A stretch of DNA of 64,000 bases from the NCBI GenBank assembly GCA_050010555.1, contig JBEKKV010000001.1, forward strand, positions 36,525 through 100,524, given 5' to 3'. The position numbers were made by a program, and so were the translations under genes. Below the pieces are notes generated by a model. That model had not been told where the DNA came from, did no database searches, and saw only the letters and a list, made by a program, of their open reading frames with translations. This document shows positions 1,904 to 26,768 of this stretch, piece by piece (positions within the stretch are counted from its first letter, which is position 1; every line of letters begins with the position of its first letter). This DNA comes from Dehalococcoidia bacterium (GTDB lineage: Bacteria > Chloroflexota > Dehalococcoidia > DSTF01 > JALHUB01).

Positions 1904-1997
1904 CGGGAGTGCGCGCGGGCAAGATCCTCCTGAGGCGGACAAGTGCCCGCGCTACGCGGACTCAGGGAAGGTCTCGCGTTAACGATGAAATAATGGT

Positions 1998-2035
1998 GAG
2001 GCCGGGGACCCAAAAGGTCGCCGGCCTTCGTTTTT
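1998..2035 (+). terminator. Probable intrinsic terminator after the glnA pair
   Basis: Stem AGGCCGG-G-GACC/CAAAA/GGTC-G-CCGGCCT followed by TCGTTTTT. Confidence 0.65.
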
Positions 2036-2057
2036 GAAGCGAAATCGTCCGGGAGCT

Positions 2058-5062: not shown

Positions 5063-6961
5063 CTACGTCCCCACTATGAGCGCAGCTATCGCGAGGACGA
5101 CCACGCCGGCGGCCATCAGCAGGGCGTAGTTCGGCATCTTGCCGGTCTCGTGGAATTTCAGCAGGAAGCCGCCGAAGCGCGTGACGTCGGCGGGCCCGTT
5201 GACACCGGTGTCGTTGACGACCGCGCGGTCGTACCAGGAAACGATGCCCGCGACGACCAGCACGACGTGATTAATGGCCCACTGGTAGGCGTCGTCCATG
5301 TAGTACTTGTTGCGGAAGAGCGTGTAGAGTTGCGGCGCGGCCTCGCCTGCCACCTTCGCGCGCTCCGCCGTGCCGCTCCAGATGTAATAGCCGCCGGCGA
5401 TTCCGAGGAGCACCAGGATGATGGACGAGGCGGTGACGCCGGCGTTGATCCGGAACGCCTCCGGCGCGGTCGTGAACAGGAACTGGCCGAAGCCGCCGGG
5501 GAAGCCCATCAGCTTTCCGACGCCCGTGAATACCACGAATCCGGCGAACACCGTCAGCACGCTCAGCAGGAGCAGCGGCAGACGCATAGCCAGGCCGGGC
5601 TCGTGCGCGTGCTCGTAGACATGCTCGTCGCGCGGCTTGCCCGTGAAGACCAGCAGGACCAGCCGCGTCATGTACAGCGCCGTGATGAGCACGCTTGCGA
5701 GGACCAGCAGGTATATGAAGAAGTTGTGGTTCTCGAAGGTCGTCAGAAGCAGCTCATCCTTGTTCCAGAAGCCGGCCAGCGGGAAGAGACCGGCCATCGA
5801 CATGGCGCCGAGCGTGAAGACCGTCGCTGTGACCGGCATCTTCCTCGCCAGCCCGCCCATCTTCGTCACCTCCAGCTCGTCGGTCGCGTGGTAGACCGAG
5901 CCCGAGGAGAGGAAGAGGAGCGCTTTGAAGAAGGCGTGCGTGAACACGTAGAGCAGCGCCACCGTCACCGAACCGGCGCCGAGGGCGATGAACATGAGCC
6001 CGAGGCTGTTCAGCGTGGAGTAGGCGACGACGCGCTTGATGTCCGTCATTACCAGGCCCATCGTCGCGGACATGAACGTCGTGATTAGGCCGACGCCGGT
6101 GACGGCGATGAGCGTGTTCGGCACCTCCTGGAAGAGGGGCATCGTGCGCGCCACCAGGTAGACGCCGGCGACGACCATCGTCGCGGCGTGGATGAGGGCG
6201 CTGACCGGCGTGGGGCCTTCCATGGCGTCGGGCAGCCAGACATGGAACGGGAACTGCGCCGACTTGCCCATCGCGCCGAGCAGAATGAGCAGGACGGAGG
6301 CGGTCAGATAAGCGTGGTCGATCTGGCCGTTGCGGGCGGCGTTGAAGATGGTCTGCATGTCAAAGGTGCCGACGGAACGATAGAGCAGGATGATGCCAAT
6401 GAGGAGGCCGACGTCGCCCAGGCGCGTCGTGATGAACGCCTTCTTGGCAGCCTCCGCCGCGGAGCGCCGCTCGTGGTAGTGGCCGATGAGCAGGAACGAG
6501 CAGAGGCCAACGCCTTCCCAGGCGAAGTAGAGCAGCAGGAAGTTGTCGGCGAGGACGAGCGTCAGCATGGCCGCCGCAAACAGCGATTGCACGGCGAAAT
6601 ACCAGCCGTAGCGCTTGTCGCCCTTCATGTAGCCGAGCGAGTAGACCTGCACCATCAGGCTGATGAAGCTGACGACCGCGACCATCACGGCCGCGAGCTG
6701 GTCGACCTGGAAGCCGATGCGCAGCTCGAAGCTGTCGAACTTCACCCACTGGTGGCCGGAGTGGACCGCCGAGAACTGGCCACCGCCGGCCAGCGCGCTC
6801 GTCAGGTCCTTGAGGACGAAGATGAACACGACGAACGAGGCGCTGATGGCTAGCACCGACAGCCAGTCGCCCTTGCGCGGCAGGTACTTGCCGAAGAGGA
6901 TGAGAATCGCGGCGGTAGCGGCCGGAATGGCGGGAATGAGCCATGCCTGCTCCATGCCCAT
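5063..6961 (-). CDS. nuoL: NADH-quinone oxidoreductase subunit L
   Basis: WEGVGLCSFLLIG, KKAFITTRLGD, GKSAQFPFHVWLPDAMEGPTPVSALIHAATMV, HAFFKALLFL. Confidence 0.95.
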   Translation of the reverse strand: MGMEQAWLIPAIPAATAAILILFGKYLPRKGDWLSVLAISASFVVFIFVLKDLTSALAGGGQFSAVHSGHQWVKFDSFELRIGFQVDQLAAVMVAVVSFISLMVQVYSLGYMKGDKRYGWYFAVQSLFAAAMLTLVLADNFLLLYFAWEGVGLCSFLLIGHYHERRSAAEAAKKAFITTRLGDVGLLIGIILLYRSVGTFDMQTIFNAARNGQIDHAYLTASVLLILLGAMGKSAQFPFHVWLPDAMEGPTPVSALIHAATMVVAGVYLVARTMPLFQEVPNTLIAVTGVGLITTFMSATMGLVMTDIKRVVAYSTLNSLGLMFIALGAGSVTVALLYVFTHAFFKALLFLSSGSVYHATDELEVTKMGGLARKMPVTATVFTLGAMSMAGLFPLAGFWNKDELLLTTFENHNFFIYLLVLASVLITALYMTRLVLLVFTGKPRDEHVYEHAHEPGLAMRLPLLLLSVLTVFAGFVVFTGVGKLMGFPGGFGQFLFTTAPEAFRINAGVTASSIILVLLGIAGGYYIWSGTAERAKVAGEAAPQLYTLFRNKYYMDDAYQWAINHVVLVVAGIVSWYDRAVVNDTGVNGPADVTRFGGFLLKFHETGKMPNYALLMAAGVVVLAIAALIVGT

Positions 6962-7001
6962 CGCTAGCTGCCCCTCTCGCTGGTCGAAACGGCCGTCGCT
7001 G

Positions 7002-7310
7002 CTACCATTTCAGGTCGTGCACCTCATCGACGTTCGCTGTCGTGCGGTTGCGGAAGATACGCAGGACTATCGCCAGCGCCAGCCCGACCTCGGCGGCGGC
7101 GATGGTGATGATGAAGATGGCGAAGATGATGCCGGCGAATCGCTGCGGCGACGTGTAGACGGCGAAGGCGACCATGTTGATGCTGGCGGCGTTCAGCATC
7201 AGCTCGACCGACATCAGGATCAGCACGGCGTGCCTTCGGACGAGGACGCCGTAGACGCCGAGCGAGAAGAGGATGGCGCTGAGAACGAGGAAGCTCTGCA
7301 GCGGGATCAC
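7002..7310 (-). CDS. nuoK: NADH-quinone oxidoreductase subunit K
   Basis: 102 aa, LMSVELMLNA, AAAEVGLALAIV; operon position. Confidence 0.92.
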   Translation of the reverse strand: MIPLQSFLVLSAILFSLGVYGVLVRRHAVLILMSVELMLNAASINMVAFAVYTSPQRFAGIIFAIFIITIAAAEVGLALAIVLRIFRNRTTANVDEVHDLKW

Positions 7311-7816
7311 ACGCCGTCCTCCTCCTCATCTTCCGAGCGCGCCAGCACTATCGCGCCGACGAGGGCGACCAGCAGGACCAGCGAGGAGACCTCGAAGGGA
7401 AGCGCGTACGTTCGGAACAGCGCGTCGCCGATGGCGTTGAAGTTGATCAGCGCTGGCGAATCAGCCTTGCGTGGCCAGGTCGTCAGGAAGATGGTCGCGA
7501 TGAGCACGCCCATCAGGCTCAGGCCGGCAACGACGGCGAACGGCTTCTGGGCGCCGTCCAGCTCCGGCACCAGCTCGCGGGCGCGCGTCAGCATGAGCGC
7601 GAACAGCAGCAGCACCGCGACGCCGCCGGCATAGAGCAGCACCTGAACTAGCGCCAGGAACTCGCTGGCGAGCAGGATGTACAGCGCCGCAACTGCCAGC
7701 AGGGTGAAGACGAGCGAGATGGCGGCGTACGCCACCTTGCCAGTCGCGACGACGCCCAGGGCGAAGAGCACGGTGAGCCCGGCGATGAAGTAGAACAGCA
7801 CTTCCGTTACGGTCAT
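7307..7816 (-). CDS. nuoJ: NADH-quinone oxidoreductase subunit J
   Basis: From ATG 7816 (MTVTEVLFY); FLALVQVLLYAGGVAVLLLFALML, YALPFEVSSLVLLVALVGAIVLAR. Confidence 0.92.
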   Translation of the reverse strand: MTVTEVLFYFIAGLTVLFALGVVATGKVAYAAISLVFTLLAVAALYILLASEFLALVQVLLYAGGVAVLLLFALMLTRARELVPELDGAQKPFAVVAGLSLMGVLIATIFLTTWPRKADSPALINFNAIGDALFRTYALPFEVSSLVLLVALVGAIVLARSEDEEEDGV

Positions 7817-8277
7817 GGCGCCACCCAGGGTGTGAATCCGCCATCGCGGGAGCGGGCCAGCAACTGCTCCAGGTCCATCACCAGCTCGCGGCGGTCGTAA
7901 CGCGACATCTCGTGGCCGGACCAGGTGTTGTTCATGGCGATCGCGCTGAAGTTGCACGTCTCGACGCAGATGCGGCAGCGGATGCAGCGCCCATAGTCGA
8001 GCAGGAACTGGTCGACTATCTTGCGCCGCTTGCTTTGCCCTTCAGCCGCCAGCGGGTTGTCCTTCATGATGACGGAGATGCACTCCGTCGGGCAGGCGCG
8101 CTCGCAGGCGTGGCAGCCGGTGCAGAACGGCTCGCCGACCTCGGCGTCCCAGAGGAGAAGGGGGTAGCCGCGCTCGCGCTCCGGTAGCTCGCGGTGCGCC
8201 GTAGGGTACTGGATGGTCACCGGCTTGCGGACCATCGTCCGGAAGGTTTCGGCCATGCCCCGCAGCACTCCAAGCAT
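7813..8277 (-). CDS. nuoI: NADH-quinone oxidoreductase subunit I (2x[4Fe-4S])
   Basis: From ATG 8277; VTIQYP, CTGCHACERACP and CIRCRICVETC cluster motifs; C-terminal part of the 7813..9069 ORF. Confidence 0.92.
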   Translation of the reverse strand: MLGVLRGMAETFRTMVRKPVTIQYPTAHRELPERERGYPLLLWDAEVGEPFCTGCHACERACPTECISVIMKDNPLAAEGQSKRRKIVDQFLLDYGRCIRCRICVETCNFSAIAMNNTWSGHEMSRYDRRELVMDLEQLLARSRDGGFTPWVAP

Positions 8278-12192: not shown

Positions 12193-14883
<2,691 letters not shown>

Positions 14884-14972
14884 GGCTCTCTCGCGGTGTG
14901 ACGGACGCGACGAAACGCCTCGGCGAAAGCGGGCTCACGAACGGGATCCCGGGCCGAGGACGTGGTAGGCAT

Positions 14973-15001
14973 AGGATACGGGGCGCCAATCGTAGGGGCA
15001 A
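14973..15001 (-). promoter_or_regulatory. Putative sigma70 promoter of valS
   Basis: Minus strand TTGCCC-N17-TATCCT. Confidence 0.55.
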
Positions 15002-15045
15002 GAGCGAGGGCCAGGCCGTGCGAAGCGCCCGCGAGTAGGGCTGGG

Positions 15046-15918
15046 CTAGTGGCCGATCGGCCAAGAGGCTGAGTCCTCTTGGCCTCGGGCATCACGCCAG
15101 TGGGTGTCAATTCGAAAGGCTGCGCTCGGGTGGCTAAAGTGACGGAGGCGGACACGGAATCTGTTGCCAGGGGGCATGATGTCCACCGGGAAAACGCCCT
15201 CATCCCTCAAGCAGATGTTGCCAGCGTTTAGGGTTTCATAGGTGACATTGAAGACGTCTGAATCCCCGTCGTTTTGAAATAGAAGGTAGTAATCATAGGC
15301 GCTTCTTCCCTGGGCTGGTTCGGATGTGAGGCTCACCTGGACGCGACCCGGCCGATCGGGCAAGAGATGGAACTCCTCAGCAAAGCCTGGTTGGCGCGCG
15401 AAGAGTTCGCCGATCTGGTGGCGGGTGAGCGGCGTCACGGTTCGTGAGGATCTACCCCAGGCGGTGCCTTTGTGGAAGTGAGGCGCACGGGGGCTCCTAG
15501 GGATTCTGACGATCACGAAACCTAGCGCAGCATCCGATGGCGACGTGACGGATGACGTCTGAACCGTCAAGGGACCGTCGAGGGCTTGCCGGGCAACGAG
15601 CTCAATTCGCTCTGGGGCGCCCGCAAGGGTAATAGGATGGAGAGCGGCGGCGCGCCCTTCGTCATCCTCTTCGATTCCGTAGATAAGGGTGCCACCGTCG
15701 GAATTTGCGAAGGAGGCTATCGCTTTGGCGATAGGATCACTGTGCCCAGCCTCAGGCAACTGCTGCTTGAATTCCAGGTGGTCGGACTCCTCAACGCGTT
15801 CGGCGACGAGAAGCTCAACGTGAGCGAACTTGGAAGGCGCTTGGGGGTCAGACGGATCCGGTTGTGGGGACTCGGGCGCGGGTCTGTCGTCGCTAGCACT
15901 ACTATCTTCGTCGTTCAA
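15046..15918 (-). CDS. Schlafen/AlbA_2-domain protein with a C-terminal Ig-like beta domain
   Basis: EESDHLEFK...IAKAIASFANSDGGTLIYGIEE and VRIPRSPRAPH match AlbA_2; C-terminus has YLLFQNDGDSDVFNV and HWRDARG; visibly more AT-rich than its neighbours; start codon uncertain (TTG). Confidence 0.8.
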   Translation of the reverse strand: MNDEDSSASDDRPAPESPQPDPSDPQAPSKFAHVELLVAERVEESDHLEFKQQLPEAGHSDPIAKAIASFANSDGGTLIYGIEEDDEGRAAALHPITLAGAPERIELVARQALDGPLTVQTSSVTSPSDAALGFVIVRIPRSPRAPHFHKGTAWGRSSRTVTPLTRHQIGELFARQPGFAEEFHLLPDRPGRVQVSLTSEPAQGRSAYDYYLLFQNDGDSDVFNVTYETLNAGNICLRDEGVFPVDIMPPGNRFRVRLRHFSHPSAAFRIDTHWRDARGQEDSASWPIGH

Positions 15919-15944
15919 GGTAGAATGGCCTCATTTCAAAGAGG

Positions 15945-15960
15945 GCCACGCCCCCGTGGC
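15945..15960 (-). terminator. Possible weak terminator hairpin after ferritin
   Basis: GCCACG/GGGG/CGTGGC on the minus strand followed by CCTCTTT. Confidence 0.35.
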
Positions 15961-15983
15961 GACTTAGGCGCGCCGCGTTGCCG

Positions 15984-16499
15984 TTATTGAGCTTGCGCGG
16001 GTGGCGGGACGAAGACCCGTAGGGCCAGCTCGCGGTCCAGCATCAGCAGACCGGCGCCGTCGCTGCCGATGAGCCTCAGGTTGCGCAGGACCCGGTTCGC
16101 CGACTCCTCTTCCTCCACCTGCTCGTTGACAAACCATTGCAAGAACGTGCCGGTCGCGTGGTCGGACTCGGCGGCGGCGGCGCTGGCGAGGGCGTTGATG
16201 AGCCCGGTCACCTTCTGCTCGTGGGCGTAGACGTCGGAGAAGGCGTGCTCCGGCGATTGCCATTCGGTCGCCGGACCGTCGATCGGCGCGAGGACGACGC
16301 GGCCGCCGCGACTGCTTATGAAGTCGAAGATCTTCAGGCCGTGCATCTGCTCTTCCTGGAACTGGACGCGCATCCAGTTGGCGAAGCCGTCGAGGTCCAG
16401 GGACTCGAAGTAGGCGCTCATGGAGAGATAGAGGTAGGCGGAGTAGAGCTCCGCGTTGAGCTGGGCGTTCAGCCTCTGCTGCATGTCGTCACTGAGCAT
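15984..16499 (-). CDS. ftnA: Non-heme ferritin
   Basis: From ATG 16499 (SD AAGGAGG); NAELYSAYLYLSM, EEQMH, HEQKVT, LQWFVNEQVEEE ferroxidase motifs. Confidence 0.93.
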   Translation of the reverse strand: MLSDDMQQRLNAQLNAELYSAYLYLSMSAYFESLDLDGFANWMRVQFQEEQMHGLKIFDFISSRGGRVVLAPIDGPATEWQSPEHAFSDVYAHEQKVTGLINALASAAAAESDHATGTFLQWFVNEQVEEEESANRVLRNLRLIGSDGAGLLMLDRELALRVFVPPPAQAQ

Positions 16500-16521
16500 A
16501 AGTCCCTCCTTGCCCGCGATT

Positions 16522-17442
16522 TTAGCTTGCCCGCGACTGACGCGCCTCGCCGGCGCTCCTGGCGAGCGGCAGCGCATGGTTGTTGGTCTCGCCGTTGCGA
16601 GCGCGGGCGACGAGGAAGAGCAGCGGAAAGGTCGCCCGCTCCAGCAGCATCTGCACGACGCGCGCCCGCCCGGGAGAGAGGCGCCCTTTCCAGGAGGCGA
16701 TGAGCAGGTCGCAGTCGGAATCGGCGGCGTAGCGGATGATCTCCTCACCCGGATCGCCGACGCGCAGGGCGACGACCATGTTAGCGTTTCGCGGCACGCC
16801 GGCAACGGCGAAGCTGCTGCGCAGGAACTCGTCCTGCCAGGCTTCGAGTTCGTGGCGCGGATCGTCGAGGAAGACGGGCGAAGCGGGGGCGCGCGCCGTC
16901 TCCGGGTTGGAGTCGACGACGTGGAGCATGAGCAGCCGCGCGTTGGAGCGCGAAGCGAGAATGGACGCCTCTTCGACCGACAGCGTCGACTCGAAGTTGC
17001 CGTCGAGCGGGATGAGGATGCGCCGCAGGTGCTGCAGGCGATGGACCTGGGTGCCGGCGTCGAGGGCGGAGCGCAGGACGAACACGGGACAGGGCGGGTT
17101 CTGGAGGACGTGCAGGGTGACGTGACCGGCCGGCTCGTCGAGGTTGCCGCCTTCGCCGTGGCTGGACATCAGTATCGCTCCGGCGTGGATCTCCCAGGCG
17201 ATGCGACGGATTGTCTCCGCAGGATCGCCGGTGGCGTTGATGAGAGTGATCTGCGTCTGCCATTCGTCACCGAGGTTCAGACGCGCCGCCGTTTCTTCCG
17301 CTGTGAGCGGCCGCGGCGATACGTAGAGCACCTGGATATCATTCTCCTGTAACTCGGCAATCGCCTCCGCTACCCGCAGCGCTTTCTCTGCCGGCATGGA
17401 CCCGTCGAGCGGGACCAGCAGCGGCGCAGTCTCAAGTAACAT
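16522..17442 (-). CDS. Tandem universal stress protein (two USP domains)
   Basis: From ATG 17442; LVPLDGS...ILMSSHG...CPVFVL and ILIPLDG...GDPGEEII...DLLIASWKG. Confidence 0.85.
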   Translation of the reverse strand: MLLETAPLLVPLDGSMPAEKALRVAEAIAELQENDIQVLYVSPRPLTAEETAARLNLGDEWQTQITLINATGDPAETIRRIAWEIHAGAILMSSHGEGGNLDEPAGHVTLHVLQNPPCPVFVLRSALDAGTQVHRLQHLRRILIPLDGNFESTLSVEEASILASRSNARLLMLHVVDSNPETARAPASPVFLDDPRHELEAWQDEFLRSSFAVAGVPRNANMVVALRVGDPGEEIIRYAADSDCDLLIASWKGRLSPGRARVVQMLLERATFPLLFLVARARNGETNNHALPLARSAGEARQSRAS

Positions 17443-19681
17443 CGGAGTCTCCCTTTCTGCCGATGGCCGACCAGAAGGTGACGGCGGGGTCGTAGCTGAA
17501 AGACTGCCAGTGGCCGGGTTCAACCAGGCGCTCCTCCATGTTCACGCGCACACGCGCCGGGGCCCCATCGATTCTCACCTCCATTACTGATTTGGCGCCG
17601 ATCCGAATGTCAACGCGGCGCTTCTGCCAGAGGAACGAGTATTCCAGATTGTCGGTGCCGCTGGGCAGGAAGGGGTCGAAGCTGATGCTTTCGGCGTTGA
17701 ACTTCAGCCCGGCCAGGCCGAATGCTACCGTCTGACGGAGCGCGCCCAGCGAGCCGATTCGCACGCCGCCGGCAGCGCCGCGGAAGGGGGGCACCATGTC
17801 GATGCCGATAGACTGGTCGAGGTACTTGCGGCAGAGGGCGTCGTCGCGGATCCAGGCAGCGATAAGGGCGTGGATCGGCGGGCTGAGGGAACTCGTGTGG
17901 GCTGTCATCGGCTCATAGTAGGCGACGTTCTTGCGCGCCGCAGCCTCTGTCCACAGCTCCGGCAGGAGGCGTATCGCCATCAGGACGTCGGCCTGCTTGA
18001 CGGCGCGCATCCGCTGCACTGCTTCGTGGCCGACGGCGATGTCGAGCGGGACGCCCGCCCGGAGATAGGACGCGACGTCGACCGGCTGCAGGCTGAAGAA
18101 GCCGTCGAACTGCTCCACCAGCTCGTCCTTGAGGAAGGTGCTGCGCTTGATCCGCTCGCCGACGCGCCGCCACTCCTGCGGATCGTTGGGTTTGATGTGA
18201 AGCCGTTTCATCAGCGACTCGGCCGCCTCGGGGTCCGACTCCCGCAGCTTCGTCGCGTAGGATTCTGCTTCGAGGAGCGTCCAGCGGGCCATCCCGTTGG
18301 TGTAGGCGTTGTTGTCGACGCCCTCGTGGTACTCGTCGGGGCCGATGACGCGTCGAATCGAATACAGGTGGTCGGAGGGCGAGACGCGGCTGTGCCAGAA
18401 GCGGGCGCATTCGAAGAGGATCTCGCCGCCGAAGTCGCGCATGAAGTCGTCGTCGCCGGTCGCGCGCCAGTACTCGATAACGGCGTAGGCGACGGCGGAG
18501 GTCACGTGGTTCTCCTGCTCGCCGTTCAGCACGCGCACCGCGGAGCCATCGGGAAGGGCGACGAAGTCCGGCGTGCGGTCCTCGCCGGTGTCGGTCGATT
18601 CCCAGGCGTACATGGCGCCGCGGTAGCCGAACGATTTCGCGCGATGACGGGCGGCATCGAGCGTGCGGTAGCGATAGAGAAGGCAGGAACGCGCCGCTTC
18701 CGGCCAGAGGAGCGAGAGGAAGGGCAGGATGAAGAGCTCTGTGTCCCAAAAGACGTGCCCGTGATAAGCGATGCCCGACAGGTCGCGCGGGCCGATGGAG
18801 CTGAGGCCGTCGTTCACGGTTGCAGAGGACATCAAGTGATAGCTGGCGAAACGGAGCGACTGCTGCAGAATGTCGTCCCCCTGGATCTTCGTATTCGCCA
18901 GCGACCAGCGGTCCCGCCACACCCGTTTGTGTTCGTCCGCCAGCTTCTCCCAGGAAAGGTCGTTTTTCTGATTGGGGCGCTGCTCACGCGCGATGACCTC
19001 GCTCACCAGGTCGAGGACCAGCGGCTGGTTGATGTTTACCTCCGCCGCTATCGAAGACTTCGTCAGCAGCGCCGGCTTTCCGTCAACGAAGAGCCACGTC
19101 TTTGCCCACGTCTGCGGCTCCGTCGTCGGTGGCTCTTCCTGGGCGGGCCAGTGCAGCGGCGACTTGTCGGCGACGTTCGGCAGAGCAACGACGATCTGTT
19201 GCGGCCCTTCGCCAGTCTCCAGCGACAGGACGAGCCGGTAGAGGTAGAGCTCCGGCCGGGAGGCGCAGGCCAGGCGTTGCGAGCGCCAGAGCCAGGAGCG
19301 GCCATGACGGTCGGTGAAGGACCAGGTCCGGTGGAGGGTAGCCTCACGCATGTCCAGTTTTCGGGAATGCGAGTTGGTGCGGACGCTGGACATGCTGAAG
19401 TTGAGCGTCTCCGCGCTGACGAAGAGCGTCGAAGGGTCGGGGAGGGTCAGCAGCGTCTGGCCGGCGGGCCCGGAGGTCGGGACGAAGACGCCGGCGACGA
19501 TGATCATGGGGTTGGACGCCGGGTTGCCCTCTTCCAGCGCCGCGCGAATGCCGAATTGGCCGTTGGCGACGGCGAAGACGGCCTCGGCGCCGCGCTCGTT
19601 GAGCGGGTCGAACCCTTCCGCGACGAGCGCCCAGGACTCTTCTTCGCCCGCCATCAGCTCACTGGTAGTGTCGACTGCCAC
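17432..19681 (-). CDS. Glycoside hydrolase family 65 protein (disaccharide phosphorylase)
   Basis: VANGQFGIR, YHGHVFWDTE, GAMYAWES, VIGPDEYHEGVDNNAYT (catalytic Glu), KQADV, SSLSPPIHA. Confidence 0.9.
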   Translation of the reverse strand: MAVDTTSELMAGEEESWALVAEGFDPLNERGAEAVFAVANGQFGIRAALEEGNPASNPMIIVAGVFVPTSGPAGQTLLTLPDPSTLFVSAETLNFSMSSVRTNSHSRKLDMREATLHRTWSFTDRHGRSWLWRSQRLACASRPELYLYRLVLSLETGEGPQQIVVALPNVADKSPLHWPAQEEPPTTEPQTWAKTWLFVDGKPALLTKSSIAAEVNINQPLVLDLVSEVIAREQRPNQKNDLSWEKLADEHKRVWRDRWSLANTKIQGDDILQQSLRFASYHLMSSATVNDGLSSIGPRDLSGIAYHGHVFWDTELFILPFLSLLWPEAARSCLLYRYRTLDAARHRAKSFGYRGAMYAWESTDTGEDRTPDFVALPDGSAVRVLNGEQENHVTSAVAYAVIEYWRATGDDDFMRDFGGEILFECARFWHSRVSPSDHLYSIRRVIGPDEYHEGVDNNAYTNGMARWTLLEAESYATKLRESDPEAAESLMKRLHIKPNDPQEWRRVGERIKRSTFLKDELVEQFDGFFSLQPVDVASYLRAGVPLDIAVGHEAVQRMRAVKQADVLMAIRLLPELWTEAAARKNVAYYEPMTAHTSSLSPPIHALIAAWIRDDALCRKYLDQSIGIDMVPPFRGAAGGVRIGSLGALRQTVAFGLAGLKFNAESISFDPFLPSGTDNLEYSFLWQKRRVDIRIGAKSVMEVRIDGAPARVRVNMEERLVEPGHWQSFSYDPAVTFWSAIGRKGDSDVT

Positions 19682-20574
19682 TGAAGTATCTCCGCAAACG
19701 TTCTTGGGCCGCCGGCGAGCTTGATGACCGGCTCCGGCACGCCGGCCGGCTCCGGCCCGACGGAGATGAAGGCGGCGTTTTGGGCCTCGGGGATGAGCAT
19801 GCGCGCGTCGCTGCCCGAGAACCCGCCGACGTCTCCGAACTCGTCGCCGGCGACTAGCACATCATCGTTTTCGATGGCGTTTTCCCGCGCCACGCTCTCG
19901 AACAGCCAGACAAGGGAATCGCCCTTGTCCGTCAAGCCCACTTCCACGTACTTGCCGTCGCTGGTTATGCGCGGCCGCGCCAGGCCTGCGCCGCGGGCAA
20001 GCTCGGCGGCAAGCTCTATCACGTCGCCGATCTCCGCGAAGCCGGCCGCGCGGACCCGATCCCTGGTCGCGGCGATGAGGTCGCTGATCTTCGCTTTCGG
20101 CGGGTCGGCCCATTCGGGGAGCGGGATCAGATCGACCTTGCGGCGATTCAGGCGCTGGTAGATGATCACCGTCTCCAGCCCTCTCGCCCGTAGCTCTCGC
20201 TGGAGCTCCTCGGCGGCGGCAGTCAGTTGCTGCTCTTCGACGGCGCTGGCCACGCGGCCGTAGACCTGGCGGCGAACGCCCGCCGCGTCGTAGGACCAGA
20301 CTTCGGAGCCGCGATTCGTGCAGACGACAAGGTTCTTCGCTCGCGCTTCCGGCGAGAGCAGCAGGAGCGACTGGTTCTCCAGGTTCTCGACCTTGGTGCC
20401 TGTTACCGGCGCTATCCAGACGCCGCGAAGGAGAAGCGCCTCCAGCGCGCGGTTCAAGTCGGGCACGGGCGTCTGGCGGTCGGGTACAGCCGTGCCGTCC
20501 CAGTCGAATATGATGAGCTCGAAGCGACGGTGCAGGGCTTGAGGCAGACTGTCCACTCTGCTTGGGCTGGTCAT
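19654..20574 (-). CDS. HAD-superfamily phosphatase (IIB-like)
   Basis: IIFDWDGT motif I, VTGT motif II, TDKGD, VAGDEFG...GSD motif IV. Confidence 0.75.
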   Translation of the reverse strand: MTSPSRVDSLPQALHRRFELIIFDWDGTAVPDRQTPVPDLNRALEALLLRGVWIAPVTGTKVENLENQSLLLLSPEARAKNLVVCTNRGSEVWSYDAAGVRRQVYGRVASAVEEQQLTAAAEELQRELRARGLETVIIYQRLNRRKVDLIPLPEWADPPKAKISDLIAATRDRVRAAGFAEIGDVIELAAELARGAGLARPRITSDGKYVEVGLTDKGDSLVWLFESVARENAIENDDVLVAGDEFGDVGGFSGSDARMLIPEAQNAAFISVGPEPAGVPEPVIKLAGGPRTFAEILQWQSTLPVS

Positions 20575-20647
20575 GGTCCCTCTCCTAAGGACCTCCCGGG
20601 CGCGCCTGCCGCCCCCGAGAAGGACATGGCCTTCGGCTATTTGCGCT

Positions 20648-20656
20648 ATGATACCA
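20648..20656 (-). promoter_or_regulatory. Extended -10 element for the HAD-GH65-USP-ferritin operon
   Basis: Minus strand TGG-TATCAT, flanked by a GCCTTCG/CGAAGGC inverted repeat. Confidence 0.5.
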
Positions 20657-20717
20657 CGAAGGCGAACGAAGGCGCTTCGGGGCCGTTTGATCTCGCGGCG
20701 GCCGTCGGCTAGGCTGG

Positions 20718-21524
20718 ATGGTAGAAGCGATAATGGAACGCAACGAAATCTCTTCGAAGCGCCCCAAGTACTCCTTTCCCAAGCGTCCGTTACTGCCCGT
20801 TGCCTTCGCTATGCTCCTGGGGCGCCATCGCTCCTTCGCGCACGATTCGGCGCTGGTGATGGCTAACAGCCCTTATCCGCGCCGCTTTGAGGGTTTCGAG
20901 CGTCTGCCGGAGGACTCCTCGTTCGTCCTCGTCATGAACCACTTCAACCGCGCCGGCCTGAACACGTATCACGCCGCCATGGCCGTGAGCGCGGAAGTTG
21001 CGGAGCGACGCCCCGGCCGCCGGGAGCTGAGCTGGCTGCTGACCAGCGAGTGGTACGGACGGCGCATCGGGCCGATTAAGATACCGGTCGCCGTCACTCG
21101 TTGGGTCTTTGGCCGCGGTGGGCTCATCTATGACCTTGTCATCTTGCCGCGACGCCCCGAGCTCGTCATGGCGCGGGCTTCGTCGCTACGGCGCGTGCTG
21201 GCGGCGCTCAAAGGCGGGCCGGTGGGCATCACGCCTGAAGCGGCGGGCTCCGGCGTTCTCATCGAGCCGCCGCCGGGCAACGGGCTTTTCCTAGCGACGC
21301 TGTCGCGGCACGGCTATCCGCTCTATCCGCTGGCCGTGTTCGAAGAGGGGTCGACGTTGGTCCTACGGATCGGCGAGCCGTTCCGGCTGACCCTCGATCA
21401 TGGGATGTCGCGCGAGGAAGCGGACCGCAGGGCACGGGAGGAGTCGATGACGGCGGTGGGGCGTTTGCTTCCGCGCGAGTACTGGGGCGTCTACGCCGGC
21501 GCCGTCGAGCGCTCTCTCGCCTGA
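20718..21524 (+). CDS. Divergent PlsC/LPLAT-like acyltransferase
   Basis: VLVMNHFN and ITPEAAG resemble LPLAT blocks I and III, but the HX4D Asp is absent. Confidence 0.5.
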   Translation: MVEAIMERNEISSKRPKYSFPKRPLLPVAFAMLLGRHRSFAHDSALVMANSPYPRRFEGFERLPEDSSFVLVMNHFNRAGLNTYHAAMAVSAEVAERRPGRRELSWLLTSEWYGRRIGPIKIPVAVTRWVFGRGGLIYDLVILPRRPELVMARASSLRRVLAALKGGPVGITPEAAGSGVLIEPPPGNGLFLATLSRHGYPLYPLAVFEEGSTLVLRIGEPFRLTLDHGMSREEADRRAREESMTAVGRLLPREYWGVYAGAVERSLA

Positions 21525-21528
21525 CCCG

Positions 21529-22827
21529 CTACCCGCTCGCTTCAGCACTCAAGCGCGGTCTTTCCTTCGGTAGAAGCGGTAGGCTGAGGACGAGCAAGGC
21601 CGAGGCGATGAGGATCAGCGCCCGGTAGCCGGCGATGTACTTCCAGCCGTTCAGTACGTCGATCATGACCCCGAAAATGCCCGCTCCCAGCGCACCCGCG
21701 CCCGCGGTCGCGTAATTGGCGATGCCGTAGAAGCGGGCGCTTTCGCCTTGGGGCATCTCGTCCGCCAGGAACGCCCAGGTCGACGCGGCGTACGCTCCGC
21801 CTGCCAGGCCAAGGATGGCGCCCAGGGCGAGCATTAGCCAGAGGCTCGGGAAGAGGCCGATGGGCACTAGATAGACAGCGGCAACCAGCGCCGCGAACAA
21901 CGCCACCTTCCGCCGTCCCAGCCGGTCGACCGCGCTTCCGGCCAGCAACGCGCCGACGATGCCCACTACAGTCGCCAGCACGAGGATGCCCGCTGCCCAG
22001 GCGCCCGGGCTGGACAGGTGGAAGACGTCGGAGAGGAAGTTGCGTAGGAAACGCTGAATGGACACGAAGCCGAGGAAGAAGAGGAAGCGGGCCGCTAGCA
22101 GTCGCGAGAAGCGGGAGTTAGCGCGAACGTCGTAGAAGAAGGCGCGATAGTTTGCATTCCGAATTCCTTCCCAGATCGGCCGCCCGACGCTCGCCGGCTC
22201 CGGCAGGCGGCGGAACACAGTGGCGGCGCCCGCCAGCAGCAGAAGGATCAGCACAGCGTAGGCGCCCCAGGGAGCGTTGATGCTCGTGAAGAGGCCGGCC
22301 GCCGCCAGGCCGACAACCGTTCCGCCGACCTCGACCGCCTGCTTGGCGCCGGATGCGACGCCGCGTTCCGACGGCGGCGCGAAGTCGGGCACGAGCGCCT
22401 GGTAGGCCGCCTGGCCGAAGTTCGAGGTGACCTGCAGGAGGGCGTAGGCGACGAACGCAAACCAGAAGTTGAACGCCAGCCCGAAAAGGATGATGAACAC
22501 GCCGTCGAGAGCGGCCGAGCCGAGGATGAAGGGCCGCCGGCGCCCGAAGCGCGAGCCGTAGCCGTCGCTGAGGGAGCCGGCGAACGGCTGCGTCACGACG
22601 GCAACGCCCAGGCCGAAGAAGAGGAGCAGCCCGAGATAGGTGTTTTTCTCGCCGGCGGGGACCAGCCTTTCGACCGCGTAGGGCGCGATTAGCGTGTTCA
22701 GGCCGGCCCATAGCGCGGAGAGCGGCAGGCCGTAGATGTTCAGGAGGACGTAGCGACGAAGCTGGTCGCGCGGCGGGAAGCGGATGTCCGACCAGAACCG
22801 CCGCCTGTCGCCCGTCTGTGTCGCCAT
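21529..22827 (-). CDS. MFS transporter (possibly sugar)
   Basis: About 12 hydrophobic segments, LSDGYGSRFGRRRPFI, AVDRLGRRK. Confidence 0.88.
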   Translation of the reverse strand: MATQTGDRRRFWSDIRFPPRDQLRRYVLLNIYGLPLSALWAGLNTLIAPYAVERLVPAGEKNTYLGLLLFFGLGVAVVTQPFAGSLSDGYGSRFGRRRPFILGSAALDGVFIILFGLAFNFWFAFVAYALLQVTSNFGQAAYQALVPDFAPPSERGVASGAKQAVEVGGTVVGLAAAGLFTSINAPWGAYAVLILLLLAGAATVFRRLPEPASVGRPIWEGIRNANYRAFFYDVRANSRFSRLLAARFLFFLGFVSIQRFLRNFLSDVFHLSSPGAWAAGILVLATVVGIVGALLAGSAVDRLGRRKVALFAALVAAVYLVPIGLFPSLWLMLALGAILGLAGGAYAASTWAFLADEMPQGESARFYGIANYATAGAGALGAGIFGVMIDVLNGWKYIAGYRALILIASALLVLSLPLLPKERPRLSAEASG

Positions 22828-22833
22828 GACGCG

Positions 22834-22839
22834 ATTCTA
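22834..22839 (-). promoter_or_regulatory. -10 element of a probable leaderless MFS transcript
   Basis: TAGAAT followed by 6 nt then ATG 22827; no SD. Confidence 0.5.
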
Positions 22840-22864
22840 CAGCATCGTTCGCAGCAGCGCCCGC

Positions 22865-22894
22865 TTGAGACGCGGCTCGGCGTCGTCGTACACT
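22865..22894 (+). promoter_or_regulatory. Putative promoter of the glutaredoxin-like gene
   Basis: TTGAGA-N18-TACACT; SD GGAGG downstream. Confidence 0.5.
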
Positions 22895-22914
22895 GGAATG
22901 GGAGGACTCAGACC

Positions 22915-23160
22915 ATGGAGCAACCGATAAAGGTCTACGGCGCGCTCTGGTGCCCCGATTGCCGCCGGACGCTTCGCTTCTTGAAGGAGCGCCAGATTCA
23001 GTTCGAGTTTGTCGACCTGGAGGAGCATCCGGAGGAGAAGGCGGTCGTGCGCCGTCGCAACGCGGGCATGGAGGTGATCCCCACCCTTTGTTTCGCCGAC
23101 GGCACATTCCTCGCTGAGCCGTCGAACGAGGCGCTCGCCCGCAAGCTGGGTATCGAATAG
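22915..23160 (+). CDS. Glutaredoxin/NrdH/mycoredoxin-like protein
   Basis: 81 aa, WCPDC, VIPTL cis-Pro motif, SD GGAGG. Confidence 0.85.
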   Translation: MEQPIKVYGALWCPDCRRTLRFLKERQIQFEFVDLEEHPEEKAVVRRRNAGMEVIPTLCFADGTFLAEPSNEALARKLGIE

Positions 23161-23169
23161 GCCGCGGCG

Positions 23170-23754
23170 CTACTTCAGGCTGAACGGCGGGTATTCGTCG
23201 TGCAGCAGGAGCGTGTAGGTCTCGACCCGCAGCTCCCAACGGAGGACCCCCTCGCCGAACTCCCACAGGCTGTCCGGGTAGTGGCCGGTAAACAGCGTCG
23301 CGAACCAGCCGATGACCGCAGTCACCAGCCAGGCGATTTCGACGACGGCCAGGACGATAATCTGCGGGATGATCAGGATGAACCGAAAGCCGACGGTCCA
23401 GCGGTTCCTATCCTCGAATACCGCCGGGAAATCCGCCTCCACCGGATACTCGCCGTCGCCGAACGGAGGGTATTCGTCTCGCAGCAGCGCCCAGTAGGCC
23501 AGGGCGCGGGCCCGCCAGCGCAGGAAGAACTGCTGAAGGCCGATCAGGTCCTTGTTCGCCTTGCCGGTGAAGACGATGATGAACCAGTTGATTACCGCGG
23601 AGATCGACGCGACCGCTCCTAGGACACCCGTCCGGCCGACGTCACCGACGATCAGGACGTGCGGTATCGCCAGGATGATGCGGAAGCCGACCGTCAGGCG
23701 ATTACGGGTTGGGGCTTGCGGCGCGACCGAGTAGGTGGCCTGCTGACCGTCCAT
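23170..23754 (-). CDS. DUF4389-type membrane protein
   Basis: From ATG 23754 (SD AAGGAGG); two repeats of NRxTVGFRxILxIP...DEYPPF. Confidence 0.8.
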   Translation of the reverse strand: MDGQQATYSVAPQAPTRNRLTVGFRIILAIPHVLIVGDVGRTGVLGAVASISAVINWFIIVFTGKANKDLIGLQQFFLRWRARALAYWALLRDEYPPFGDGEYPVEADFPAVFEDRNRWTVGFRFILIIPQIIVLAVVEIAWLVTAVIGWFATLFTGHYPDSLWEFGEGVLRWELRVETYTLLLHDEYPPFSLK

Positions 23755-23835
23755 CTTTCTCCTCCTTGAGTCGAGTCCGGCCGATGGGCCCATCTTACGG
23801 CGCGGTCAGGCGAATTACAACGTCGATTGCCGGCG

Positions 23836-25973: not shown

Positions 25974-26087
25974 ACGTCGACCACGCGCACCGCCCGGCCC
26001 ACGCAGCGGTCCGACCATGTTGGATTCTGCCCTGTCGCCGTGCTACTGTATTCGCGGCCTCTGTCGATGATACCTGCGGAGAAACAA

Positions 26088-26768
<681 letters not shown>

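What the first reader, a model, noticed from the sequence alone, without database searches (positions are those of the whole stretch)
15046..15918. Stand-alone Schlafen nuclease fused to an Ig-like domain: candidate anti-phage tRNase
Seen: an AlbA_2/Schlafen core with the ExxxxEFK acidic residues intact. It is followed by about 105 aa of beta-strand-rich sequence with an LxFxNxGxxxxxNV motif and a WxDxxG end, typical of Ig/CARDB-like sandwiches. The gene is more AT-rich than its neighbours and sits between ferritin and valS. Established: Schlafen domains cleave tRNA, and some prokaryotic Schlafen fusions with sensor domains have been reported as phage defence. Inference: a single-gene defence system whose Ig domain senses a phage protein. 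Its position immediately upstream of valS on the same strand is curious.
Basis: partly seen in the sequence, partly recalled or inferred. Interest (0 to 1): 0.7.

Follow-up and report, generated by a model that had tools for sequence, protein, structure and literature searches.

The report
Compact Schlafen–Ig candidate phage-defence tRNase
This is an intact, horizontally acquired gene in a peat Chloroflexota genome that joins a Schlafen RNA-cutting domain to a small immunoglobulin-like domain, the layout shown in 2026 to defend enterobacteria by sensing a phage protein and cutting tRNA, so it is a new member of a known kind rather than a new system.

Summary
Window 15046-15918 (minus strand) is an intact 290-aa ORF between ferritin and valS. 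GC3 is 0.65 against 0.84±0.045 for 35 other window genes (z=-4.4).

The family is small: 15 clusters at 90% identity and about 47 at 50%, all metagenomic and unnamed. It has no conserved neighbour across at least 15 contexts, so it is a stand-alone accessory gene. Adjacency to valS is not conserved.

Slfn+Ig-like fusions ("pSlfn5", RorSlfn5) are Mn2+-dependent tRNases switched on when the Ig domain binds a phage tail assembly chaperone (PMC13056530). This protein is smaller than RorSlfn5 (31.9 vs 43.1 kDa). I could not test whether the two Ig domains are related.

One new lead: the same Ig-like domain is also fused to an HNH nuclease of the type found in CBASS and Shedu effectors, to DUF4062, and to TM/coiled-coil proteins. 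That pattern suggests a portable sensor. Function is inferred, not shown.

The parts
15046..15918 (-). Whole ORF (290 aa, 31.9 kDa, pI 5.1; stop codon at 15046-15048): Schlafen nuclease plus Ig-like domain
15929..15932 (-). GAGG, a Shine-Dalgarno-like site 10 nt upstream of the TTG start
   Evidence: read directly from the sequence
15814..15918 (-). N-terminal acidic, Pro/Ser-rich tail (aa 1-35). It is predicted disordered (pLDDT below 60) and is present only in the window's subclade (P0001-P0005).
15394..15813 (-). Schlafen/AlbA_2 nuclease domain (aa 36-175; the Pfam match covers aa 44-164)
   Evidence: Foldseek matches to SLFN12/13/5/11/14, DIP2311 and the SAMD9 tRNase domain; PDB profile hits including CbCash
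15766..15789 (-). Catalytic motif E44-S-D-H-L-E49-F-K51 (Ex4(E/D)xK)
   Evidence: The motif is defined as catalytic in PMC13056530 and in CbCash as E17/D22/K24.
15343..15393 (-). Conserved linker (aa 176-192, 'QPGFAEEFHL...'; G178, F179, E182 and F183 are invariant)
15049..15342 (-). Ig-like beta-sandwich domain (aa 193-290), the putative sensor
   Evidence: AF2 models; Foldseek; profile search
15244..15285 (-). CARDB-like strand motif L212-x-F-x-N216-x-G218-x5-N224-V225
   Evidence: also conserved where the domain is fused to other partners
15082..15099 (-). W274-x-D276-x-x-G279 motif near the C-terminus
15059..15084 (.). Perfect 10-bp hairpin with a 6-nt loop inside the last codons of the ORF. 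Its significance is unknown.
   Evidence: z=-2.45; unique in the window
14884..15045 (-). 162-nt spacer to valS. It contains no Rfam family (so no T-box) and no predicted terminator or sigma-70 promoter.
15984..16499 (-). Context only: ferritin gene, 65 nt upstream
12193..14883 (-). Context only: valS (896 aa), followed by the nuo operon

Best explanation
This is a single-gene, cytoplasmic sensor-effector immune protein with the Slfn+Ig-like ('pSlfn5') layout.

Proposed mechanism:
1. The N-terminal Schlafen domain is a metal-dependent endoribonuclease with catalytic residues E44, E49 and K51. In the resting, probably oligomeric, state it is inactive.
2. The C-terminal Ig-like beta-sandwich binds a protein made by an infecting phage.
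3. Binding rearranges the oligomer and switches on cleavage of tRNA loops or arms. Translation stops and phage yield falls.

Shown here:
- the domain architecture, the intact and conserved catalytic motif, and the Ig-like fold;
- faster divergence of the Ig domain than of the nuclease domain;
- a stand-alone, sporadically distributed, compositionally foreign gene;
- the same Ig-like module on other immune-type effectors.

Inferred by analogy with RorSlfn5 and CbCash: tRNA as the substrate, a phage protein as the trigger, oligomerisation, and protection.
For: 1. **Nuclease.** PF04326 matches at E=7e-13. Ex4(E/D)xK is kept in 15/15 close members and 41/43 representatives. The fold matches SLFN12/13/5/11/14 and the SAMD9 tRNase domain at Foldseek probability 1.0. 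A profile of the family hits the SLFN proteins and CbCash in the PDB.
2. **Ig-like domain.** The domain-only model has pLDDT 86.6 and pTM 0.78. Its best PDB matches are the peptide-binding Ig-like adaptin ear/GAE domains: TM 0.55-0.61 and, for the best-fitting matches, rmsd about 3.4 A over about 100-105 columns.
3. **Published precedent.** Slfn+Ig-like RorSlfn5 is a Mn2+-dependent tRNase activated by direct binding of the T5 tail assembly chaperone. Specificity transfers with the Ig domain.
4. **Same evolutionary signature as pSlfn5.** Mean pairwise identity is 0.53 for the nuclease domain and 0.33 for the Ig domain. Against the closest homologue the values are 0.81 and 0.53.
5. **Accessory gene.** GC3 is at z=-4.4. 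The gene is lower in GC than its neighbours in most homologous loci. No neighbour is conserved across at least 15 contexts. The gene is absent upstream of valS in 80 relatives. The closest genome has DUF4389->valS->nuo without it.
6. **Some homologues sit beside defence genes.** These are a retron type XI RT-protease (L099), a PD-T4-6/mad6-like kinase (L097), and MazE-PIN plus an N6_N4 methyltransferase (L001).
7. **The Ig-like module recurs on other effectors.**
   - An HNH nuclease of the type found in CBASS and Shedu effectors (P0098), next to DruA, NurA-like and DUF87 genes.
   - DUF4062.
   - TM plus coiled-coil proteins that match PHROG 6723.
Against: - No known defence gene lies within about 10 kb in this window. 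The neighbours are ferritin, Usp, GH65, valS and nuo.
- PADLOC-DB 2023 and NCBIfam give no hit.
- About 30% of prokaryotic Schlafens are not defence-associated, and only one of the three pSlfn5 homologues tested in PMC13056530 (RorSlfn5) protected against the phages tried.
- Homology to RorSlfn5's Ig domain is untested. The size differs (31.9 vs 43.1 kDa), and no Slfn protein of comparable size (all 43 full-length hits are 256-317 aa) appeared among the hits to the Ig profile.
- No expression data exist; no RNA run holds the gene.
- No empty-site variant was seen in four peat metagenomes.
Confidence: 0.65

Rival explanations
1. It is a Schlafen RNase whose Ig-like domain is not a phage-protein sensor. 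The domain would instead be an oligomerisation or autoinhibition module. The enzyme would then be activated by another cue (stress, a nucleic acid, loss of a labile host factor), as an abortive-infection or addiction-type toxin of mobile DNA.
For: - Prokaryotic Schlafens need higher-order assembly to form or expose their active sites: the CbCash dodecamer converts to a filament, and RorSlfn5 is a hexamer of unknown driver.
- Foreign composition and sporadic distribution fit any selfish or accessory toxin.
- TM-Ig relatives occur in phage or plasmid-like contexts.
Against: - No conserved antitoxin-like neighbour exists.
- The Ig domain evolves faster than the nuclease domain. That is expected for a domain tracking a variable ligand, less so for a self-assembly module.
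- In the one studied Slfn-Ig system the Ig domain binds the trigger directly and carries the specificity.
Confidence: 0.17
2. It is a non-immune cellular protein: a nucleic-acid-binding or tRNA-processing factor functionally linked to its neighbours (valS, ferritin, Usp), for example in stress-regulated tRNA turnover.
For: - It lies on the same strand as ferritin and valS, with spacers of 65 and 162 nt and no predicted terminator.
- All neighbours are housekeeping or stress genes.
- One homologue lies next to the tRNA-modification gene tsaD.
- 30.4% of pSlfn genes are not near defence genes.
Against: - The valS/ferritin adjacency is seen only in identical copies of this genome and in no other family member.
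- GC3 is 4.4 sd below the genome's genes, including the other genes of the same 8-kb block.
- The family is tiny and patchy, with 15 clusters among 5.8 billion proteins.
- There is no T-box or other RNA element.
Confidence: 0.12
3. It is an inactive remnant or a mis-called ORF.
For: The start codon is TTG, and the N-terminal 35 aa are low-complexity and poorly conserved.
Against: - The ORF is intact and its catalytic motif is complete.
- The ORF translates to the identical 290-aa protein in contigs from three public assemblies. Contigs from four peat metagenomes dated 2018-2020 match the locus with no differences listed.
- The model is confident in both domains.
- GC3 exceeds GC2 as in real genes.
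- 47 clusters of homologues share the same architecture.
Confidence: 0.03

Closest known systems
pSlfn5 / RorSlfn5 (Raoultella ornithinolytica Schlafen-Ig-like defence protein; Perez Taboada et al., Nat Microbiol 2026, PMC13056530)
   Same: - Single gene.
- N-terminal Schlafen nuclease with Ex4(E/D)xK.
- C-terminal Ig-like beta-sandwich.
- Nuclease domain more conserved than the Ig domain.
- No obligatory partner gene.
   Different: - 31.9 kDa here against 43.1 kDa, so the region C-terminal to the nuclease domain is much shorter here, about 115 aa (my inference from the masses).
- A 35-aa disordered N-terminal tail here, whereas RorSlfn5's catalytic E is residue 15.
- Chloroflexota and peat rather than Enterobacterales.
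- The best structural neighbours of the Ig domain are adaptin ear/GAE domains, whereas integrin ectodomains were reported for RorSlfn5.
- Sequence relatedness of the two Ig domains was not tested.
- Trigger, substrate and protection are unknown here.
CbCash (CRISPR-associated Schlafen-Csx15, Chloroflexi bacterium; PMC13462974; PDB 9ylu)
   Same: - Single-lobe prokaryotic Schlafen tRNase with an E-D-K triad (E17/D22/K24), equivalent to E44/E49/K51 here.
- Weak profile-level sequence match (E=0.016).
- Activation by sensor-driven re-arrangement of an oligomer is a plausible shared principle.
   Different: - Its sensor is a Rossmann-like Csx15 domain that binds cA4, and it depends on type III CRISPR.
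- Here the sensor is an Ig-like domain and there is no CRISPR context.
Mammalian SLFN11/12/13/14 and the SAMD9 tRNase domain
   Same: Same nuclease fold and catalytic acidic residues; antiviral tRNA cleavage.
   Different: The eukaryotic proteins have a two-lobed pseudo-dimeric N-domain plus linker and helicase or other large domains. The window protein has one lobe and an Ig-like domain.
AlbA_2-ATPase(-wHTH) proteins (DIP2311, PDB 3lmm; the 'ATP-binding protein' annotations on actinobacterial plasmids; pSlfn HisKinase/HTH classes)
   Same: Homologous AlbA_2/Schlafen domain (30-40% identity over aa 42-176; Foldseek).
   Different: Those carry GHKL/HisKinase-like ATPase and HTH domains. None has the Ig-like C-terminus, and none covers more than 60% of the query.
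Modular single-gene systems with a shared core and swapped partners (Shedu; Avs)
   Same: The logic is the same. One module, here the Ig-like domain, appears with alternative partners: Slfn, HNH, DUF4062 and TM/coiled-coil.
   Different: Here the shared part is the putative sensor and the effector varies. There is no sequence relationship to SduA or Avs, except that P0098's HNH domain resembles the SduA and CBASS HNH effectors.

Membership tests
Schlafen / AlbA_2 nuclease superfamily (PF04326) | Significant match to the PF04326 profile above the gathering score | tested here: met
   49.6 bits against 25.3, E=7.1e-13, aa 44-164
Schlafen / AlbA_2 nuclease superfamily (PF04326) | Catalytic Ex4(E/D)xK motif | tested here: met
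   E44-x4-E49-x-K51. Kept in 15/15 close homologues and 41/43 representatives. Aligns to SLFN5 E191/E196.
Schlafen / AlbA_2 nuclease superfamily (PF04326) | Schlafen nuclease fold | tested here: met
   The AF2 model (pLDDT 86) matches 5yd0, 7lre, 7cux, 7zep, 9o0d and 3lmm at Foldseek probability 1.0. Whole-protein TM scores are low because the query has two domains.
Schlafen / AlbA_2 nuclease superfamily (PF04326) | Metal-dependent cleavage of tRNA | not testable with these tools
   Needs biochemistry
pSlfn5 (Slfn + Ig-like; defined by domain composition in PMC13056530) | Slfn domain fused to a domain with an Ig-like fold, in one polypeptide | tested here: met
   Eight-strand beta-sandwich at aa 193-288. 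Best PDB matches are Ig-like adaptin ear/GAE, ApaG and pilus-chaperone domains.
pSlfn5 (Slfn + Ig-like; defined by domain composition in PMC13056530) | Sequence or structural homology to RorSlfn5/PagSlfn5/SfoSlfn5, including their Ig domain | not testable with these tools
   The sequences are in supplementary tables that are not held. Indirect evidence: all 43 full-length Slfn proteins found with the Ig profile are 256-317 aa, so none is of a size comparable to RorSlfn5, and the masses differ at 43.1 vs 31.9 kDa.
pSlfn5 (Slfn + Ig-like; defined by domain composition in PMC13056530) | Nuclease domain conserved, sensor domain divergent among orthologues | tested here: met
   Mean pairwise identity 0.53 against 0.33
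pSlfn5 (Slfn + Ig-like; defined by domain composition in PMC13056530) | Association with defence islands | tested here: inconclusive
   None within about 10 kb in the window. Three to four of about 15 other contexts have retron, kinase, TA or methyltransferase neighbours.
pSlfn5 (Slfn + Ig-like; defined by domain composition in PMC13056530) | Activation by a phage protein bound by the Ig domain; protection against phage | not testable with these tools
   Needs a phage challenge or trigger screen
CARDB / DUF11-type Ig-like repeats (E-set) | Match to a Pfam CARDB/DUF11 model | tested here: inconclusive
   The window protein's C-terminus has no Pfam hit at E<=1. A profile of the domain does hit a DUF7507/DUF11/CARDB repeat protein (P0055) at E=2e-8, and a related DUF4062-Ig protein gives CARDB at E=0.06.
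Cash (Schlafen-Csx15, type III CRISPR-associated) | Rossmann-like Csx15 cA4-binding domain; CRISPR neighbourhood | tested here: not met
   The C-terminus is all-beta and Ig-like. No cas genes were seen nearby.
AlbA_2-HATPase-wHTH regulators (DIP2311 type) | C-terminal GHKL-type ATPase and/or HTH domain | tested here: not met
   No such domain. Plasmid homologues with 'ATP-binding protein' annotation match only aa 42-176.
Type II toxin-antitoxin pair | Conserved adjacent small partner gene | tested here: not met
   An all-against-all comparison of neighbours in 11 loci found none shared, except between two near-identical loci.

The most novel reading that the evidence does not exclude
The compact CARDB-like Ig domain of this protein (NxG ... 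P..L.P ... WxDxxG) may be a portable, fast-evolving phage-protein sensor. Bacteria and their mobile elements would have plugged it onto at least four different killing or arrest modules:
- a Schlafen tRNase;
- an HNH DNase of the type found in CBASS and Shedu effectors;
- DUF4062;
- TM plus coiled-coil membrane proteins (PHROG 6723, in at least two cases paired with a homologous ~88-aa zinc-ribbon protein).

That would define a sensor-centred superfamily of one- and two-gene defence systems that no current defence catalogue lists.
Probability: 0.3. Interest if true: 0.65.

Novelty: new member of a known kind. Interest (0 to 1): 0.4.

Why it matters
If it is active, it extends the newly described Schlafen-Ig tRNase immunity from Enterobacterales to uncultured peat Chloroflexota.

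It is also a minimal version, about 255 structured residues, which would suit structural work on how an Ig-like sensor gates a single-lobe Schlafen nuclease.

The recurrence of the same small Ig-like module on HNH, DUF4062 and membrane-protein partners gives a concrete handle for finding further systems. It also offers a way to ask what conserved phage protein these domains recognise.

In itself the gene is not surprising to a specialist after the 2026 papers.

Tried and rejected
1. **valS link.** I looked for a T-box or other regulatory RNA, a terminator and a promoter between the gene and valS. Rfam at E<=1 found nothing, and the consensus scans found no promoter and only one terminator-like site, which lies inside valS on the opposite strand. 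The valS adjacency is absent from every other family member. I rejected a functional link to valS.
2. **Insertion scars.** The only flanking repeat is a 12-nt, 11/12 match (15006-15017 and 15941-15952). That is too short to distinguish from chance in GC-rich DNA. No tRNA or integrase is adjacent.
3. **Empty-site variants.** Contigs from four peat metagenomes laid on 13800-17200 showed no joint skipping the gene. The listed joints are short cross-matches inside valS and ferritin.
4. **Transcription.** No RNA run holds the gene.
5. **Catalogues and plasmids.** PADLOC, NCBIfam and plasmid tblastn gave no full-length relative. Plasmids carry only Slfn-ATPase fusions.
6. **RorSlfn5 sequence.** I tried to obtain it for a direct comparison. 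Supplements of both paper versions are not held.
7. **Synteny through ValRS relatives.** No relative's valS locus carries the gene. The closest is only 64-66% identical, so this is a weak presence/absence test. It did reveal DUF4389->valS->nuo in L009.
8. **dN/dS.** I did not attempt this on the Ig domain because the closest pairs (65-77% aa identity) are likely saturated at synonymous sites.
Full report
**1. The observation**

The ORF is real. It runs 15046..15918 on the minus strand and encodes 290 aa (31.9 kDa, pI 5.1) from a TTG start. A GAGG lies 10 nt upstream. No other in-frame start codon lies before the catalytic motif, so the low-complexity N-terminus must be translated.

Pfam assigns aa 44-164 to SLFN_AlbA_2 at E=7.1e-13, 49.6 bits against a cut-off of 25.3. 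'ESDHLEFK' is E44-x4-E49-x-K51. In a phmmer alignment to human SLFN5 these two glutamates fall on E191 and E196, and E84 falls opposite D233.

The gene has GC 0.597 and GC3 0.646. Thirty-five other genes of the window average GC 0.657±0.018 and GC3 0.841±0.045, so z is -3.4 and -4.4. Ferritin (15984-16499) lies 65 nt upstream and valS (12193-14883) 162 nt downstream, all on the minus strand.

**2. Structure**

An AlphaFold2 model built on the 15-sequence family alignment has mean pLDDT 86.4. It shows three parts:
- a disordered tail, aa 1-35;
- an alpha/beta domain, aa 36-175;
- after a short conserved linker (QPGFAEEF), eight beta-strands between aa 193 and 288.

Foldseek against the PDB matches the first domain to SLFN12, SLFN13, SLFN5, SLFN11, SLFN14, the AlbA_2 protein DIP2311 and the SAMD9 tRNase domain, all at probability 1.0. 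Whole-protein TM scores are low because the query has two domains.

The C-terminal domain modelled alone has pLDDT 86.6 and pTM 0.78. It matches Ig-like beta-sandwiches. The alpha- and gamma-adaptin ear/GAE domains come first, at TM 0.55-0.61 and, for the best-fitting matches, rmsd about 3.4 A over about 100-105 columns. ApaG and pilus-chaperone domains follow.

At sequence level the window protein's C-terminus hits no Pfam model. A profile of the domain does reach a DUF7507/DUF11/CARDB repeat protein at E=2e-8, so 'CARDB-like' is a fair description.

**3. The family**

A search of 5.8 billion protein clusters found only 15 full-length relatives (39-65% identity). All come from metagenomes or metagenome-derived assemblies, and none is named beyond 'hypothetical protein'. 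An exhaustive HMM search with the Ig-domain profile over 1.84 billion representatives found 224 hits. Classing those hits together with the 15 proteins, 47 proteins are Slfn+Ig; the 43 full-length ones span 256-317 aa with a median of 270.

- Ex4(E/D)xK is kept in 15/15 close relatives and 41/43 full-length representatives.
- N216, G218, P244 and W274 of the Ig domain are invariant. D276 and G279 are at least 90% conserved.
- The nuclease domain is much better conserved than the Ig domain. Mean pairwise identity is 0.53 against 0.33. Against the nearest homologue the values are 0.81 and 0.53.

**4. Genomic behaviour**

The window is from a Chloroflexota (Dehalococcoidia-like) genome. The best ValRS matches are 64-66% identical. 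The locus occurs in peat metagenomes. The ferritin-gene-valS arrangement is seen only in identical copies of this genome.

The nearest homologue (P0002, 65% identity) lies between an aminotransferase gene and an unrelated gene. Flanks of P0002-P0004 share nothing with the window. An all-against-all comparison of neighbours in 11 further loci found no shared neighbour, except between two near-identical loci. Even those two differ in the small gene next to the Schlafen gene.

In most loci the gene is lower in GC than its surroundings. None of 80 valS loci from relatives has the gene. In the closest one (L009) the order is DUF4389->valS->nuoA..L. In the window the orthologous DUF4389 gene (59% identity) lies 8.3 kb away. 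MFS, HAD, GH65, Usp, ferritin and the Schlafen gene lie in between. The Schlafen gene is the only one of that block with foreign codon composition.

The gene is therefore accessory, mobile on evolutionary time scales, and stand-alone.

Some homologues lie beside defence genes:
- a retron type XI RT-protease (E=5e-169 to the PADLOC model);
- a PD-T4-6/mad6-like kinase;
- MazE-PIN plus an N6_N4 methyltransferase.

In the window itself nothing within about 10 kb matches PADLOC.

**5. What is known**

Perez Taboada et al. (Nat Microbiol 2026, PMC13056530) catalogued 5,930 prokaryotic Schlafens in 55 domain compositions. Fusions to Ig-like domains (3.9%) are 'pSlfn5'. For RorSlfn5 they reported the following:
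- It is a single gene and gives a 22-fold reduction in efficiency of plating for T5.
- The Ig-like domain directly binds the T5 tail assembly chaperone and carries the trigger specificity in domain swaps.
- The activated enzyme is a Mn2+-dependent tRNase that cuts the anticodon arm.
- E15A/D20A mutations kill its activity.
- The protein is a hexamer.
- The nuclease domain is more conserved than the sensor domain.

Weickert et al. (PMC13462974) solved CbCash, a Chloroflexi Schlafen-Csx15 fusion. E17/D22/K24 plus a metal ion form the active site. Ligand binding converts an inactive dodecamer into a filament that exposes the catalytic pockets. CbCash appears as a weak hit to the family profile (E=0.016). 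A third paper shows defence by an Enterococcus Schlafen with an unannotated C-terminus.

**6. Mechanism proposed**

By architecture, motif, fold, evolutionary signature and genomic behaviour, the window protein is best read as a pSlfn5-type sensor-effector. The resting oligomer would be inactive. A phage protein binds the Ig-like domain. The Schlafen domains rearrange, tRNA is cleaved and translation is arrested.

The architecture, motif, fold and evolutionary pattern are shown here. Substrate, trigger, oligomerisation and protection are inferred by analogy.

I put this at 0.65. The main rivals are:
- an RNase whose Ig domain serves assembly or autoinhibition rather than phage-protein sensing (0.17);
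- a non-immune cellular role (0.12).

The valS adjacency is not conserved, and there is no T-box or other RNA element in the spacer. I regard it as coincidence.

**7. Membership versus resemblance**

Membership in the Schlafen nuclease superfamily is met on profile, motif and fold. Membership in 'pSlfn5' as defined (a domain composition) is met.

Whether this is the same sequence family as RorSlfn5 could not be tested, because the sequences are not in the held texts. It is probably a separate, more compact lineage:
- the mass is 31.9 against 43.1 kDa;
- there is a 35-aa N-terminal tail here, against a catalytic E at residue 15 in RorSlfn5;
- no Slfn protein of a size comparable to RorSlfn5 is among the Ig-profile hits (all 43 full-length ones are 256-317 aa);
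- the best structural neighbours of the Ig domain differ.

**8. A lead beyond the finding**

The Ig-domain profile also finds the same module at the C-terminus of other proteins, with the NxG and W..G motifs conserved across them.

(a) A 393-aa protein has an N-terminus that matches the HNH endonuclease domain found in CBASS, SAVED-HNH and Shedu effectors (E=1e-29 to 2e-17). It is encoded next to DruA, NurA-like and DUF87/HerA-like genes.

(b) Two proteins carry DUF4062. The match is borderline, 24.2 bits against a cut-off of 24.7.

(c) Sixty-seven of the 161 proteins classed are TM plus coiled-coil plus Ig proteins, nearly all of 133-197 aa.
- They correspond to PHROG 6723, of unknown function.
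- In two unrelated contigs they follow a homologous ~88-aa zinc-ribbon gene.

One sensor-like module on several effector types is the pattern seen in modular immune systems. It supports, but does not prove, a sensor role.

**9. Verdict**

This is a new, divergent and compact member of a known kind. Interest is moderate, at 0.4.

Noticed in passing
window 14884-23793, compared with L009 5229-8706: The closest available genome has DUF4389->valS->nuoA..L. In the window an ~8.3-kb block (small ORF, MFS transporter, hypothetical, HAD-like, GH65 phosphorylase, Usp, ferritin, Schlafen-Ig) lies between the orthologous DUF4389 gene (23170-23793, 59% identity) and valS. Only the Schlafen-Ig gene in the block has atypical GC3.
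   Followed up: partly
P0098 / L174 171-1352 and neighbours 1551-5570: A 393-aa protein joins an HNH endonuclease domain of the type found in CBASS, SAVED-HNH and Shedu effectors to the same Ig-like C-terminal domain. It is followed by DruA, NurA-like and DUF87 (HerA-like) genes, which looks like a defence island.
   Followed up: partly
P0058 (L175 4478-4951), P0060 (L178 1369-1857), P0063 (L177 6001-6519) and about 60 more representatives: A family of proteins, nearly all 133-197 aa, has an N-terminal TM helix, a coiled coil and the same Ig-like domain. It matches PHROG 6723 (unknown function). In L175 and L178 the gene is immediately preceded by a homologous ~88-aa CxxC...CxxC zinc-ribbon gene (40% identity), which suggests a two-gene module. 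L175 also carries an XRE-type HTH and a Rep-like gene. L177 has an N6_N4 methyltransferase nearby.
   Followed up: partly
P0129 and P0157 (L176 331-1209): Two 292-aa proteins combine a DUF4062 N-terminal domain (borderline Pfam score) with the same Ig-like C-terminal domain.
   Followed up: no
L099 179-1978: A retron type XI RT-protease (RVT_1 plus trypsin-like domain; PADLOC E=5e-169) lies directly upstream of, and slightly overlaps, a Schlafen-Ig family member.
   Followed up: no
L001/L003 (10792-12591 / 6248-8047): In the P0007 loci a 586-599-aa N6_N4 methyltransferase with a weak NA-iREase1 hit follows the Schlafen-Ig gene directly (overlapping it by 19 nt in two of the assemblies), and a MazE-PIN pair precedes it. 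This partner is not conserved elsewhere.
   Followed up: partly
L089 1001-1426 versus L100 1602-1856: Two closely related loci (neighbour genes 89-93% identical) carry Schlafen-Ig genes that are only 77% identical. They have different small genes (an HNH-like 141-aa ORF against an 84-aa ORF) between the Schlafen gene and the aldehyde dehydrogenase gene. This looks like a local variable hotspot.
   Followed up: no
window 15059-15084: A perfect 10-bp inverted repeat with a 6-nt loop (GGCCAAGAGG/CCTCTTGGCC) sits inside the last codons of the ORF. It is unique in the window. The RNA fold of the surrounding 81 nt is -38.4 kcal/mol, z=-2.45. No T-run follows it.
   Followed up: partly
window 15006-15017 and 15941-15952: A 12-nt near-identical direct repeat (GAGGGCCAGGCC / GAGGGCCACGCC) brackets the gene. 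It is probably chance in GC-rich DNA.
   Followed up: partly
window 26040-26768: A LOG/SLOG-family protein (Lysine_decarbox, LDcluster4) has a weak PADLOC PsyrA match (E=6e-7). It is most likely an ordinary LOG enzyme.
   Followed up: no
L005 7586-9676: A radical SAM protein with weak intein (Intein_splicing) and faint LAGLIDADG hits lies just upstream of the P0015 family member.
   Followed up: no
P0072 and P0056 (representatives): Two of 43 full-length Schlafen-Ig representatives lack the second acidic residue or the whole motif. P0072 reads ERTDLVFK, and P0056 has a garbled N-terminus. They may be inactivated or mis-called copies.
   Followed up: no
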